Source: a virus
Virus record (IMG/VR): IMGVR_UViG_3300035684_000002
Span: 1-64,000 of that record
Direction: 5' to 3' (one strand)
DNA: 64,000 nt
Part shown: positions 35,275-37,063 of the stretch, one piece after another
How positions within the stretch are numbered: the first letter of the stretch is position 1
Layout of the letters: the number at the start of each line of letters is the position of its first letter
Position numbers and translations under genes: made by a program
Notes under the pieces: generated by a model
Databases searched by the model: none
Seen by the model: the letters and a program-made list of their open reading frames with translations, nothing else
What the model was told of the DNA's origin: nothing

Positions 35275-35414
35275 CGCCAGACCCAGCAGCGCACCCCGCA
35301 CTCGCGACACCGCGGTGCCGACAGCCCGGGCGCCAACCCGAACGGGATCACGACGTGCCCGCGCAGCCAGCACCCCGGCCGCCGCCACCAGCGGGCCCGA
35401 CTTCGCGCACCCAT
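35271..35414 (-). CDS. 47-aa Cys-containing peptide (tentative)
   Basis: ATG 35414 overlaps the TGA of the upstream gene (TGATG). CRECGVRC. The TAA stop lies inside the cassette B upstream site. Below the ORF-track size cutoff. Confidence 0.3.
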   Translation of the reverse strand: MGARSRARWWRRPGCWLRGHVVIPFGLAPGLSAPRCRECGVRCWVWR

Positions 35415-37063
35415 CAGCTGACCCGCGTCATCGACGGCAGCGGGAAGTGCGTCACGGCGGCGGCGATGGCGTCGATGATGTCGTCGTGCTCAACCTGCGG
35501 CCAGGCCAGCATCTGCTCTTGCGCTTCGGGCTGCCGGCCCCGGTGCACGATCTCGCCCCGGCGGTACCGGTCGAGCAGGACGGAGATCCGGGCTTCCTTC
35601 CGTTCGGTCGCGCGGTAGAGGTGCAGCACGTGGTCGCCGTTCCCGCCGCGGATCAGCTCGCGCGGCCGACGGGCGGTGGCCTCGCGCCAGATCGGGCCGG
35701 GGAAGTCGCGGAAGATGTCGGCCCAGAGATCGCCTCCGGCGTTGGCCTCCAACCAGACGTGGCCGACGTCGGGGTTGCCGCGCAACGCTGAGTAGACCTT
35801 CTCCCGCAAGTCGGTGGGTGTGCACTGCCAGCCCAGCGCCAGTTCGACCATCACCGTGCCGGCCATGCCGACCGGCTGGCTGGCGATGGCCATCGCCTGG
35901 TAGTCGCTGTTCTCCGTCGCGGTCAGCGCGACGTCGAGGCACATCACCCGGGTGCCGGGCACGGGCACGCGGTCGACGATGCGGAACAGCTCGCCAGTCC
36001 AGTGCTCGCCGGAGCCAGGCGGCGGCGGGTGACCGTCGAAGTTCAGCGCCCAGGTGCGGGTGCCGCGCTTCGCGGTCAGGTGGTCGAGCGACCACATGGC
36101 CGGCCACAGCGAGCGGGCGTAGGGGGTGTCGACGTCGAGGATGGGCGGGTAATGCCGGCACTCGAAGCGCTCGCTGGCGATCCACTCCGCCACCCCGCCC
36201 TCGCGGCCCTGGGTGCGCGCGGCGTCGACGACCCGCACGACGTCGTGCATCAGCGAGCCGTGCATGGTGACGACCCCGGATATGGTGACCACGGCGTGCG
36301 GGCTGGCCATCGGGATGATCGCCTGGGTGATGATCCGTTCGCGGGCCCGGCGGTCGCGCAACGTGTACTGGGCTTCGTCGGGCTCGACGTCGTCGAAGTG
36401 CAGTTCATCGGGCCGGCCCTCGACGTTTAGCCCCATGCGCCGCTCGCGCAGTCCCTGCGCGGCGTACACCGCGCCGTCGGTCAGGATGACCGTGCCCTGG
36501 CTGTCGCGGGCGCCGGCCATCCCGCGCCGCCACGGAGCCAGGTGCGGGAAGTCGCCCAGCAGCCGGCTGGTGCGCGCGAGGTCGCGGCGGAAGTTGCCCG
36601 CGTGGTCGCGCGCCTGGGTGGTCGAGTCGGACACGATCAGCGGGAACCGCCGGTGCCGGAACGCCAATGCCCACATCGGCAGGATGCGCAGCAGCCAGGT
36701 GCTCTTCGCCGACCCGCGGGGGGCGACGACGGCGAGGCGGTGCCCGTGCCGGCGGCCCGCGTCGTCGGCGGGCCAGTGCCGGCCGGCGACGTCGGCGAGG
36801 TCGAGGTGCAGCGGGTTGAACTCGACCACGCCCCGGGTGTCCTCGTTCGACAGCAGCCAGGGCATGTAGTGGATCGCGAAGCGCACCGGGTCGTAGCGAC
36901 ACGCCGCCAGCCGGAACTCGCGGTCGACCTCGATCAGCGGGACCAGCTCGCCCCGGTAGGTCGTCATCTCGTCGAACGGCCAGAGATACCGGTCGGCGTC
37001 GACGTTGGGCGGGAAGCCGATGCCGCCCGCGGGCGAAGCGGTCGCACTGGTCGAGCTGGTCAT
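35414..37063 (-). CDS. second terminase-large-subunit-like ATPase/nuclease
   Basis: Track ORF 549 aa. Walker A VVAPRGSAKST. GLRERRMG...RPDELHFDDVEPDE (Walker B-like). C-terminal RNaseH-like blocks VMCLDVALT, WLEANAGGD, EHDDIIDAIAAA. Confidence 0.78.
   Translation of the reverse strand: MTSSTSATASPAGGIGFPPNVDADRYLWPFDEMTTYRGELVPLIEVDREFRLAACRYDPVRFAIHYMPWLLSNEDTRGVVEFNPLHLDLADVAGRHWPADDAGRRHGHRLAVVAPRGSAKSTWLLRILPMWALAFRHRRFPLIVSDSTTQARDHAGNFRRDLARTSRLLGDFPHLAPWRRGMAGARDSQGTVILTDGAVYAAQGLRERRMGLNVEGRPDELHFDDVEPDEAQYTLRDRRARERIITQAIIPMASPHAVVTISGVVTMHGSLMHDVVRVVDAARTQGREGGVAEWIASERFECRHYPPILDVDTPYARSLWPAMWSLDHLTAKRGTRTWALNFDGHPPPPGSGEHWTGELFRIVDRVPVPGTRVMCLDVALTATENSDYQAMAIASQPVGMAGTVMVELALGWQCTPTDLREKVYSALRGNPDVGHVWLEANAGGDLWADIFRDFPGPIWREATARRPRELIRGGNGDHVLHLYRATERKEARISVLLDRYRRGEIVHRGRQPEAQEQMLAWPQVEHDDIIDAIAAAVTHFPLPSMTRVS

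What the first reader, a model, noticed from the sequence alone, without database searches (positions are those of the whole stretch)
35414..37063. Second, apparently intact terminase-large-like ATPase/nuclease downstream of rsr; the canonical TerL shows deviant Walker boxes
Two TerL-type genes are present.

Gene 9983..11722 sits in the canonical small terminase / large terminase / portal position. Aligned by eye to HK97-type TerL:
- Its P-loop reads QKWGKD (Asp where Ser/Thr is expected).
- Its Walker B region reads FATFTEPH (Thr where Asp is expected).

Gene 35414..37063 lies 1.3 kb downstream of rsr, joined to it by overlapping start/stop codons (same minus-strand gene string, no terminator hairpin noted between). 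It has:
- A clean Walker A (PRGSAKST).
- A G..R..RPDELHFDDVE Walker B block.
- Three acidic RNaseH-like nuclease blocks.

An HTH protein with small-terminase-like architecture (42486..43028) also sits in the early region.

Possible explanations (all inference):
- A split or heteromeric packaging motor.
- A packaging enzyme borrowed for another nucleic-acid transaction, for example host DNA degradation or RNA/DNA processing linked to Ro.
- A remnant of a second packaging module.
Basis: partly seen in the sequence, partly recalled or inferred. Interest (0 to 1): 0.7.

Follow-up and report, generated by a model that had tools for sequence, protein, structure and literature searches.

The report
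Phage carrying a second, orphan terminase
This uncultured high-GC phage encodes, besides its ordinary DNA-packaging enzyme next to the head genes, a second complete and apparently active packaging enzyme (small plus large subunit) of an unrelated lineage among its replication genes, and relatives have kept this arrangement, which suggests a conserved job that nobody has described.

Summary
Gene 35414..37063 (-) is a full-length large terminase (TerL2). All ATPase and nuclease catalytic residues are intact, and the predicted fold matches solved terminases, best the T7-like PhiV-1 enzyme.

The HTH gene 42486..43163 (-) is its cognate small terminase (TerS2). The window therefore holds two complete terminases:
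- HK97-type TerS1/TerL1 beside the portal.
- An unrelated TerS2/TerL2 in the non-structural arm.

TerL2's wider family normally sits in TerS-TerL-portal-capsid modules of Streptomyces and Microbacterium phages and satellites. The window's copy belongs to a separate "orphan" clade. This clade never sits beside its cognate portal, always keeps a TerS2, and lacks the family's basic/aromatic C-terminal tail. One diverged relative also carries an HK97-type TerL and portal on the same contig.

TerL1's odd Walker residues are real. They are a clade-wide paired swap (Walker A Ser/Thr to Asp, Walker B Asp to Thr), found in 120 of 120 closest homologues, so they are not decay. The relative with both terminases has canonical Walker motifs.

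A split motor, compensation for TerL1, and a remnant are therefore not supported. My best reading, which is inferred, is a site-specific DNA-cutting and translocating holoenzyme that no longer depends on its ancestral portal. A true second packaging route remains possible.

The parts
35414..37063 (-). TerL2: full-length large terminase (ATPase plus RNase H-like nuclease) of the orphan clade
   Evidence: phrog_38 E=1.2e-44. tblastn to sole terminases of cultured phages. Motifs invariant across the family. AF2 pLDDT 84.8; Foldseek top hits are all TerL.
42486..43163 (-). TerS2: cognate small terminase (N-terminal HTH plus helical region). An alternative start at 43028 gives 180 aa.
   Evidence: phmmer/hmmsearch iterations link it to the ORF directly upstream of TerL2-type genes. 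hhalign against canonical TerS, including the annotated OscarSo TerS: 98.5% probability, E=2.7e-15. Weak HTH_23 and phrog_3064 'terminase' hits. 47% homologue in L391.
37060..37404 (-). Small ORF (114 aa; 134 aa from the longest start at 37464) whose stop overlaps the TerL2 start; function unknown
   Evidence: ATGA overlap read from the ORF list. Gene called in the NCBI and Logan copies. Its only detectable homologue is weak: L011's 95-aa ORF, 34% over 68 aa, E=2.7e-5. The ~103-109 aa ORFs at the equivalent position in L391, L003 and L012 are homologous to each other but not detectably to it. No family hits.
37694..38104 (-). Conserved 136-aa ORF between rsr and TerL2
   Evidence: 34-39% homologues in L003 and L011/L311; no family hits.
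38101..38325 (-). 74-aa ORF that follows rsr in the window, L391, L003 and L011; its L012 homologue lies at the contig edge, where rsr is not visible. Contains a perfect 16-bp hairpin at 38271..38305.
   Evidence: 47-68% identity among the window, L391, L003, L011 and L012 copies. Weak PF12824 hit. Hairpin I7.
38332..40017 (-). rsr (Ro60 homologue), inserted between TerS2 and TerL2
   Evidence: PF05731 TROVE E=1e-46 and PF25045 vWA_Ro60 E=2e-57. The same order TerS2 ... rsr ... TerL2 is seen in L391.
40442..40550 (-). YrlA-like Y RNA candidate upstream of rsr
   Evidence: Rfam RF02553, 39.5 bits (gathering score 69), E=8.6e-7, full model length; the tRNA-like arm also hits RF00005. Fold z-score is only -2.0.
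41363..42568 (-). 401-aa ORF of unknown function between TerS2 and the Y RNA/rsr block
   Evidence: ORF with GC3 0.95; no PHROG, Pfam or PADLOC hit.
34396..35226 (-). DpdA (7-deazaguanine DNA transglycosylase), last gene of the arm, downstream of TerL2
   Evidence: PF23859 E=2.4e-71 and phrog_1279. Adjacent to TerL2 only in the window, L011, L311 and L312.
34348..34381 (.). Perfect 15-bp-stem hairpin where the two gene arms converge (likely bidirectional terminator)
   Evidence: Inverted repeat I9.
9036..9548 (+). TerS1: small terminase of the canonical module
   Evidence: PF25673 Terminase_7 E=7.5e-6. 42-54% homologues sit upstream of TerL1-type genes.
9983..11722 (+). TerL1: HK97-type large terminase with the Walker A Asp / Walker B Thr swap
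   Evidence: phrog_9 and phrog_19179. Alignments A2, A3 and A5. 120 of 120 homologues carry D/T/E. Foldseek HK97 TerL at E=2.4e-19.
12185..13708 (+). Portal (HK97-type), partner of TerL1
   Evidence: PF04860 E=2e-40 and phrog_12. No Dryad- or MiniFlayer-type portal or capsid gene anywhere in the window.

Best explanation
Shown by the evidence:
- The window encodes two complete terminase holoenzymes of unrelated lineages.
- TerS1/TerL1 (HK97 type) sits with the portal and head genes and is the obvious virion-packaging enzyme.
- TerS2 (42486..43163) and TerL2 (35414..37063) form a second, catalytically intact holoenzyme of the T7/Dryad-like lineage.
- TerS2/TerL2 has been inherited as an 'orphan' module in the non-structural (replication/recombination) arm of a lineage of high-GC actinophages.

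Inferred mechanism:
- TerS2 still recognises a specific DNA site through its HTH domain.
- TerL2 still cuts DNA and translocates along it using ATP.
- The enzyme has lost the C-terminal tail that its family appears to use to dock on its own portal type.
- It therefore most likely works off the capsid, as a site-specific DNA-processing enzyme expressed with the DNA-metabolism genes. One possibility is making defined ends in replicating or concatemeric DNA.

rsr/YrlA and DpdA are later insertions into or beside this operon, not obligate partners.
For: Identity and integrity:
- PHROG hit, tblastn, and fold matches to solved terminases.
- Catalytic residues are invariant in 97 family members and nearly so in 51 orphan-clade sequences.
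- dN/dS is about 0.3 for closer pairs.

TerS2:
- Iterative HMM searches, hhalign at 98.5% probability, and a TerS2 homologue in L391.

Orphan clade:
- A neighbour-joining tree separates the window, L011, L003, L012, L028/L314, L022, L075, L013, L020 and L007 from 82 canonical members that sit beside a Dryad/MiniFlayer-type portal and capsid gene.
- With library representatives added, the clade holds 51 tips and no canonical reference.

Context:
- In the window, L012, L391, L314, L349, L075, L007 and L020, TerL2 converges with lysin or tail genes at the end of an arm. Where enough upstream sequence is held (the window, L314, L349), that arm carries exonuclease and helicase homologues.
- In L022 it lies beside a primase/polymerase-like gene.

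Coexistence with an HK97-type terminase:
- Seen in the window, and in L022 (phrog_9 TerL at 17081-18808 plus phrog_12 portal at 19059-21110).

C-terminal tail:
- Canonical members have a median 26.5-residue tail with 4 K/R, and an aromatic residue near the end in 64 of 82.
- Orphan members have a median 18-residue tail with 1 K/R, and the aromatic in 1 of 11.
- The TerL C-terminus binds the portal in T3, lambda, SPP1 and P22 (review PMC13595956).

Other:
- No cognate portal or capsid gene in the window.
- TerL1 and TerL2 share no detectable sequence similarity, so they are not recent duplicates.
Against: - No functional data of any kind exist. The off-capsid role rests on gene position and the absence of a tail motif whose docking role in this family is itself inferred.
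- The window's own subclade has a different conserved C-terminal motif (HF-x-LP), which could be a new docking element for the HK97-type portal.
- Terminase genes far from the portal are normal in T7-like genomes, so position alone does not exclude packaging.
- An HK97-type terminase in the same genome is demonstrated only for the window and L022. For the other orphan-clade contigs the head region could not be retrieved.
- About 9.7 kb of the ~73.66 kb genome lies outside the window and was not inspected.
- The trees are neighbour-joining without bootstrap support.
Confidence: 0.45

Rival explanations
1. TerS2/TerL2 is a genuine second packaging terminase that docks on the same HK97-type procapsids. 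This would give the phage a second packaging specificity or mode, for example a different initiation site or end type, or a different substrate.
For: - Both subunits are retained and fully intact.
- The window subclade has its own conserved C-terminal motif, HF-x-LP.
- T7-type genomes also keep terminase genes far from the portal (established knowledge).
- The best structural match is the T7-like PhiV-1 TerL.
Against: - The family's conserved basic/aromatic C-terminal tail is missing.
- The cognate portal type is absent.
- A complete matched TerS1/TerL1/portal set is present.
- The genes sit among replication and recombination genes, not late genes.
Confidence: 0.25
2. The module is a weapon in conflicts between mobile elements. 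An early-made terminase recognises and cuts the packaging site of competing Dryad-like phages or MiniFlayer-like satellites that use the same terminase family.
For: - The canonical relatives include capsid-encoding satellites and their kind of phages in the same host phylum.
- TerS2 retention implies sequence-specific targeting.
- Redirection of packaging between satellites and helpers through terminase subunits is established for PICIs and SaPIs (established knowledge).
Against: - The orphan clade is old and diverse (36-39% identity between sublineages, at least 36 further 50%-identity clusters) and sits in a stable position. That looks like a core function, not an arms-race accessory.
- It is sister to the canonical group as a whole, not nested within the satellite branch.
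- No PADLOC hit.
Confidence: 0.12
3. TerL2 works with its neighbours. Either it acts on nucleic acid together with Ro60/YrlA, or it serves as the ATPase partner of DpdA during 7-deazaguanine insertion, by analogy with bacterial DpdB.
For: - rsr, the 74-aa ORF and TerL2 keep the same order in the window, L003, L011/L311 and L391. The 74-aa ORF and TerL2 are also together in L012.
- DpdA is the next gene in the window, L011, L311 and L312.
Against: - Orphan-clade loci outside the window's subclade (L314, L349, L075, L007, L013, L020, L022) have TerS2/TerL2 but no rsr.
- L391 and L012 have TerL2 without DpdA.
- TerS2, not Ro or DpdA, is the constant partner.
Confidence: 0.06
4. TerL2 compensates for, or forms a mixed motor with, a TerL1 whose Walker boxes are defective.
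For: TerL1 lacks the Walker A Ser/Thr and the Walker B Asp.
Against: - The two changes are perfectly correlated (D/T/E in 120 of 120; S/D in Muddy, VWB and JacoRen57). The catalytic Glu and both lysines (K88 and K91, equivalent to HK97 K57 and K60) are kept.
- The TerL1 clade is far more common than orphan TerL2 in IMG/VR.
- L022 combines an orphan TerL2 with a canonical-motif HK97-type TerL.
- The two proteins belong to different TerL lineages with no detectable sequence similarity.
Confidence: 0.03
5. TerS2/TerL2 is a neutral leftover of a recombination with another phage's packaging module.
For: Phage genomes are mosaic, and the module lacks its portal and capsid genes.
Against: - All catalytic residues and the partner TerS2 are kept across deeply diverged relatives with conserved placement.
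- dN/dS is about 0.3.
Confidence: 0.04

Closest known systems
Canonical TerS-TerL modules of Streptomyces phages (Dryad, Gibson, KimJongPhill), Microbacterium phage OscarSo and the Streptomyces satellites MiniFlayer and Mulchroom
   Same: - Same TerL family: 30-34% identity over nearly the full length, with identical Walker A, Walker B and nuclease residues.
- Same TerS family.
   Different: - In those genomes the pair is the only terminase and is followed by its portal and major capsid gene.
- Here the cognate portal and capsid genes are absent.
- The C-terminal basic/aromatic tail is missing.
- The genes lie in the non-structural arm, 5.4 kb apart, with rsr between them.
- A second, HK97-type terminase is present.
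T7-group large terminase (gp19; PhiV-1 TerL, PDB 8dgc_E)
   Same: - Best structural match (E=1.4e-18).
- In T7 the terminase genes also lie far from the portal gene, at the end of a gene arm (established knowledge).
   Different: - The sequence match to NCBIfam termin_lrg_T7 is far below its cut-off (19 against 150 bits).
- The rest of the genome is not T7-like: it is siphovirus-type with an HK97-like head module.
- T7 has only one terminase.
HK97 gp2 large terminase (PDB 6z6d), the relative of TerL1
   Same: - Same fold (E=2.4e-19).
- Same N-terminal region.
- Both Walker A lysines and the catalytic Glu are present. The TerS, TerL, portal gene order is the same as in the window.
   Different: TerL1 and its whole clade carry Asp in place of the Walker A Ser/Thr, and Thr in place of the Walker B Asp (HK97: K57, K60, D153, E154; PMC9410871).
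Satellite/helper packaging systems (SaPI and PICI TerS variants; capsid-forming PICIs with their own TerS/TerL)
   Same: Two terminase specificities operate in one infected cell.
   Different: - In those systems the two are encoded by two separate, competing elements.
- Here both sit in one phage genome, and relatives have kept the arrangement.

Membership tests
Large terminase (TerL: ASCE ATPase plus RNase H-like nuclease), tested on TerL2 | Walker A P-loop with Lys-Ser/Thr | tested here: met
   115-PRGSAKST-122. R116 and K120 are invariant; S121 is S or T in all 97 sequences.
Large terminase (TerL), tested on TerL2 | Walker B acidic residue plus catalytic glutamate | tested here: met
   220-ELHFDDVE-227. 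D224, D225 and E227 are invariant in 97 sequences.
Large terminase (TerL), tested on TerL2 | RNase H-like nuclease domain with acidic metal-binding residues | tested here: met
   D377, D387, E439, D528 and D531 are invariant in 97 sequences; D527 is D in 95 of 97. Nuclease domains of G20c, Sf6, RB49 and herpesvirus terminases are matched by fold.
Large terminase (TerL), tested on TerL2 | Two-domain fold like solved terminases | tested here: met
   AF2 pLDDT 84.8. 29 of the 33 Foldseek matches with E<=0.001 are terminase ATPase and/or nuclease structures, and the top 29 are all terminases.
Large terminase (TerL), tested on TerL2 | Curated sequence-model membership (Pfam, NCBIfam) | tested here: not met
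   No Pfam hit at E<=0.01. NCBIfam termin_lrg_T7 scores 19.2 bits against a cut-off of 150. Only PHROGs (phrog_38) and a relative's Terminase_6C hit recognise it.
Large terminase (TerL), tested on TerL2 | Cognate small subunit encoded with it | tested here: met
   TerS2 at 42486..43163, same strand, 5.4 kb upstream. It lies directly upstream of TerL2 in relatives L007, L013 and L020.
Large terminase (TerL), tested on TerL2 | Encoded beside its portal and head genes, with a C-terminal portal-docking tail | tested here: not met
   No cognate portal or capsid gene in the window. The family's basic/aromatic C-terminal tail is absent.
Large terminase (TerL), tested on TerL2 | Packages DNA into procapsids | not testable with these tools
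   Needs genetics or biochemistry.
HK97-type large terminase, tested on TerL1 | Fold, N-terminal region, and position between TerS and portal | tested here: met
   Foldseek 6z6d at E=2.4e-19. Profile match to 6z6d residues 10-52. TerS1 is upstream and the portal downstream.
HK97-type large terminase, tested on TerL1 | Canonical Walker A Ser/Thr and Walker B Asp | tested here: not met
   D92 and T197 replace them. K88, K91 and E198 are kept. The state is conserved in 120 of 120 close homologues.
Small terminase (TerS), tested on TerS2 | N-terminal HTH plus helical oligomerisation region, homologous to TerS of the same module type | tested here: met
   HTH_23 in 5 of 8 clade members. hhalign to a canonical TerS profile, whose first sequence is the annotated OscarSo TerS: 98.5% probability. 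The oligomeric state was not tested.
Anti-phage defence systems (PADLOC) | Match to any defence-protein model | tested here: not met
   No hit for TerL2, TerS2 or their neighbours.

The most novel reading that the evidence does not exclude
A lineage of actinophages has turned a complete terminase holoenzyme (TerS plus TerL) into a capsid-independent, site-specific DNA-cutting and translocating enzyme of the replication/recombination gene set. It has been kept alongside the ordinary packaging terminase for a long evolutionary time. This would be the first terminase with a conserved non-packaging job.
Probability: 0.4. Interest if true: 0.8.

Novelty: new variant of a known kind. Interest (0 to 1): 0.62.

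Why it matters
- Terminases are treated as single-copy hallmark genes. They are used to classify phages, to predict packaging mode and genome ends, and to count viruses in metagenomes.
- A conserved clade of complete second terminases breaks that assumption and would mislead terminase-based typing of these genomes.
- If the enzyme works away from the capsid, it would be a new role for a well-studied molecular motor, and a possible programmable cutter/translocase (a TerS that reads a site and a TerL that cuts and pumps).
- The paired Walker A Ser-to-Asp and Walker B Asp-to-Thr swap in the TerL1 clade is a natural experiment on how P-loop ATPases hold magnesium.

Tried and rejected
- **Sequence searches of the PDB.** Neither protein nor its profile gave anything useful, apart from a weak HK97 N-terminal match for TerL1.
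- **Pfam and NCBIfam.** No usable hits for either TerL.
- **Testing whether other orphan-clade phages also carry an HK97-type TerL.**
  - Walking along IMG/VR contigs with exact-match searches returned only short stored chunks.
  - Look-ups by lysin homologues showed a Pseudonocardia hispaniensis prophage with no TerL2 after its lysin, but its head region lies on another contig.
  - Only L022 settled the question.
- **Assembly breakpoints as a clue to genome ends.** The NCBI contig's 141-nt terminal overlap equals an assembler k-mer size, and the JGI copy is broken elsewhere. The breakpoints say only that the assembly is circular.
- **Direct repeats near TerS2 and at the arm junction.** Only chance-level matches.
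- **Consensus promoter and terminator scan.** Nothing found in this GC-rich DNA.
- **Literature searches for phages with two large terminases.** They found only split genes or unrelated uses of the phrase.
- **A decoy role against terminase-sensing Avs immune proteins.** I considered this because the best fold hit is an Avs3-bound terminase. I dropped it because an extra early TerL should trigger such sensors, not blunt them.
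Full report
**What the window is.**
- The window is 73% G+C. A GC3-guided ORF map and family searches show a tailed-phage genome with two converging arms.
- The plus arm carries a primase/polymerase (1532..4033), a holin-like gene, TerS1 (9036..9548), TerL1 (9983..11722), the portal (12185..13708), a protease, the major capsid protein, tail genes and a lysin (32968..33882).
- The minus arm, read in the direction of transcription, carries an exonuclease (61735..63225), a helicase (56499..58577), an endonuclease VII (44591..45403), the HTH protein (42486..43163), a 401-aa ORF, a Y-RNA-like gene, rsr (38332..40017), three small ORFs, TerL2 (35414..37063) and DpdA (34396..35226).
- A perfect hairpin (34348..34381) marks the point where the arms meet.
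- The same sequence exists as NCBI contig JAXMNJ010891271.1 (73,798 bp) and as a JGI contig of 73,783 bp. The NCBI ends overlap by 141 nt inside the dpdA-TerL2 spacer.
- The genome therefore assembles as a circle of about 73.66 kb, and the window lacks about 9.7 kb of it.
- No cultured phage is close. Only an rsr fragment matched by megablast.

**The observation.**
- Both genes are large terminases.
- TerL2 hits phrog_38 at E=1.2e-44. It aligns over nearly its full length, at 30-34% identity, with the sole terminases of Streptomyces phages Dryad, Gibson and KimJongPhill, Microbacterium phage OscarSo and the satellites MiniFlayer and Mulchroom.
- Its AlphaFold2 model (pLDDT 84.8) matches solved terminases across both domains. 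The best is the T7-like PhiV-1 enzyme (8dgc_E, E=1.4e-18), followed by HK97, T4 gp17, Sf6 gp2 and D6E.
The catalytic residues R116, K120, D224/D225, E227, D377, D387, E439, D528 and D531 are invariant in 97 family sequences, with S121 as S or T and D527 in 95 of 97.
- TerL1 hits phrog_9 and phrog_19179 and more than 2,000 actinophage records. Its model (pLDDT 89.8) matches HK97 TerL best (E=2.4e-19).
- The two proteins show no detectable similarity to each other, and neither do TerS1 and TerS2. These are not duplicates but two lineages.

**TerL1's 'deviant' Walker boxes.**
In HK97 TerL the Walker A lysines are K57 and K60, and Walker B is D153-E154 (PMC9410871).
- TerL1 keeps K88, K91 and E198. 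It has Asp92 where Ser/Thr should follow the lysine, and Thr197 where the Walker B Asp should be. The predicted secondary structure places these at the strand-loop-helix and at the end of the Walker B strand.
- This state is invariant in all 120 closest homologues (45-82% identity). Many are prophages of Pseudonocardia, Allokutzneria, Prauserella, Saccharothrix, Nonomuraea and Micromonospora.
Of these, 570 were confirmed TerL1 relatives.
- More distant cultured relatives have the ordinary pair: Muddy, VWB and JacoRen57 have GKS with LD. Kromp has GKG with D.
- Both residues normally help to hold the magnesium ion (review PMC13595956). A perfectly correlated Ser-to-Asp / Asp-to-Thr exchange therefore looks like a compensated swap, not decay. 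That it is compensatory is my inference.

**The HTH protein is TerS2.**
- phmmer with 42486..43163 directly finds the ORFs that lie just upstream of TerL2-type genes in L007, L013, L028 and L075.
- Two more HMM rounds pull in the corresponding ORFs of canonical modules, including Dryad gp1 and the annotated small terminase of OscarSo.
- A profile of eight orphan-clade proteins aligns to a profile of ten canonical ones with 98.5% probability (E=2.7e-15, 123 columns).
- Five of the eight carry a recognisable HTH_23.
- The window therefore holds a complete second holoenzyme.

**Where this family normally lives, and where this clade lives.**
- Scans of IMG/VR, JGI metagenomes and GTDB genomes gave several hundred relatives.
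- In 82 of 97 sampled loci the gene is followed by a Dryad/MiniFlayer-type portal and capsid gene. Four more are followed by a phrog_776 portal.
- The remaining sequences form one clade in a neighbour-joining tree.
- Apart from L026 (next to a capsid gene, and outside the clade in the second tree), they never sit beside a cognate portal.
- They lie at the distal end of an arm, converging on lysin or tail genes. This holds for the window, L012, L391, L314 (the same phage as L028), L349, L075, L007 and L020.
- In the window, L314 and L349, where enough upstream sequence is held, that arm also carries helicase and exonuclease homologues.
- In L022 the gene lies next to a primase/polymerase-like gene.
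- A profile search of 1.84 billion representatives found 294 proteins at E<=1e-30. When the 132 usable sequences of the 150 best were added to the tree, 36 further 50%-identity clusters fell inside the clade and no canonical reference did. Their genomic context could not be checked.
- Within the window's own subclade (TerL2 55-77% identical) the order TerS2 ... rsr, 74-aa ORF, small ORFs, TerL2 is conserved (L003, L011/L311, L391).
- The deeper members have no rsr. DpdA follows TerL2 only in the closest relatives. Both look like insertions into or beside an older TerS2-TerL2 operon.

**Coexistence is not unique to the window and is independent of TerL1's swap.**
- L022 (IMGVR_UViG_3300032017_000002) carries TerS2 (6840-7325) and TerL2 (10004-11626, 39% identical).
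- On the same strand 5.5 kb further on, it carries a phrog_9 large terminase (17081-18808, E=7.6e-56) followed by a phrog_12 portal. These are the same PHROG families as the window's TerL1 and portal.
- That HK97-type TerL has canonical ARQQGKT and LLILDE motifs.
- Orphan-type TerL2 is also much rarer than the TerL1 clade in IMG/VR: about 6 of roughly 550 sampled relatives, against 570.
- Together these points argue against the idea that TerL2 rescues a weak TerL1.

**What distinguishes the orphan clade.**
- After the last catalytic Asp, canonical family members carry a conserved tail. It is a basic stretch ending in Ser-Tyr-(Ala/Val/Leu) or similar.
  - Median length is 26.5 residues, with a median of 4 Lys/Arg.
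  - An aromatic residue lies near the end in 64 of 82.
- The four members paired with a different portal family have a different tail.
- The orphan clade has short, non-basic tails.
  - Median length is 18 residues with 1 Lys/Arg, and the aromatic is present in 1 of 11.
  - Across all 51 clade sequences the median length is 16.
- Genetic and biochemical work on T3, lambda, SPP1 and P22 places portal binding at the TerL C-terminus (PMC13595956).
- I infer that the orphan clade has given up docking on its ancestral portal type. Its ATPase, its nuclease and its DNA-recognition subunit are all kept under purifying selection (dN/dS about 0.3 for closer pairs; synonymous sites are constrained by 95% GC3).

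**Most likely mechanism and its rivals.**
- Shown: a complete, intact, vertically inherited second terminase holoenzyme sits in the non-structural arm, alongside an HK97-type packaging module.
- Inferred: TerS2 binds a specific site, and TerL2 cuts and translocates DNA without being mounted on its ancestral portal, as part of the DNA-metabolism programme. I give this about 0.45.
- The main rival (about 0.25) is that it is a true second packaging enzyme for the same capsids. The window subclade's own conserved C-terminal HF-x-LP motif and the T7-like habit of placing terminase genes far from the portal keep this alive.
- Lesser rivals are a role in conflict with Dryad-like phages or satellites (0.12), coupling to Ro/YrlA or DpdA (0.06), a neutral remnant (0.04) and a mixed motor with TerL1 (0.03). 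Each is less consistent with the distribution data.
- No defence-system model matches any of the genes.

**Novelty.**
- Full-text searches for phages with two large terminases returned only split genes or unrelated uses of the phrase.
- None of the cultured-phage matches listed is an orphan-type copy.
- The proteins themselves are ordinary family members.
- The new element is a conserved, portal-less second holoenzyme coexisting with a different terminase. I therefore class it as a new variant of a known kind.

**Limits.**
- There are no experimental data.
- The trees have no bootstrap support.
- Context is known for about a dozen clade members only.
- Coexistence with an HK97-type terminase is shown in two genomes.
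- 9.7 kb of this genome was not seen.

Noticed in passing
window 40442..40550 (-): A YrlA-like Y RNA candidate lies about 425 nt upstream of rsr. The Rfam RF02553 match spans the full model (39.5 bits, below the gathering score of 69; E=8.6e-7), and a tRNA-like arm also scores with RF00005. The fold z-score is only -2.0.
   Followed up: partly
window 40883..40922: A perfect 40-nt palindrome lies between the 401-aa ORF and the Y-RNA/rsr block. It may be a terminator separating TerS2 from rsr-TerL2 transcription, or a protein-binding site.
   Followed up: no
window 38101..38325 (-), with hairpin 38271..38305: A 74-aa ORF (weak PF12824 MRP-L20 similarity) directly follows rsr in the window, L391, L003 and L011. 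A homologue sits at the edge of contig L012, where rsr is not visible. It contains a perfect 16-bp hairpin right after the rsr stop. It could be an Rsr partner protein or a processing/termination signal.
   Followed up: partly
window 9983..11722 (+), residues D92 and T197: The whole TerL1 clade shows a paired swap of the two magnesium-holding positions of a P-loop ATPase: Walker A Ser/Thr to Asp and Walker B Asp to Thr. It is present in 120 of 120 close homologues. Kromp (GKG plus D) looks like an intermediate. I found no description of this in the papers searched.
   Followed up: partly
window 34396..35226 (-): A DpdA 7-deazaguanine DNA transglycosylase (PF23859, E=2e-71) is the last gene of the arm. 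No preQ0-synthesis genes turned up among the ORFs I scanned, but I did not search for them systematically, and 9.7 kb of the genome is outside the window.
   Followed up: no
window 9036..9548 (+): The TerS1 family is labelled 'minor tail protein' in PHROGs (phrog_226) and in the RefSeq record of phage VWB (gp32). Pfam Terminase_7 and its position directly upstream of TerL say small terminase. This is probably a propagated mis-annotation.
   Followed up: partly
window 35256..35396: The NCBI copy of this genome begins and ends here with a 141-nt overlap. Logan contigs from SRR11829736 also break within about 60 nt of it (35200..35227). This is most simply explained by assembler k-mer effects, but the dpdA-TerL2 spacer also holds an imperfect palindrome (35295..35330) and could be worth checking for real termini.
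   Followed up: partly
L022 7519..8988 and window 41363..42568: Two of the relatives whose TerS2 and TerL2 are not adjacent (L022 and the window) each carry a large ORF of unknown function (489 aa and 401 aa) just after TerS2. Neither has any family hit. Whether they are related to each other was not tested.
   Followed up: no
L308 14866..18267 (Pseudonocardia hispaniensis JBHSQW010000044.1): A related prophage ends, after its lysin, next to an FtsK/SpoIIIE-like gene and a DUF2637 gene. This is the signature of an actinomycete integrative conjugative element abutting the prophage.
   Followed up: no
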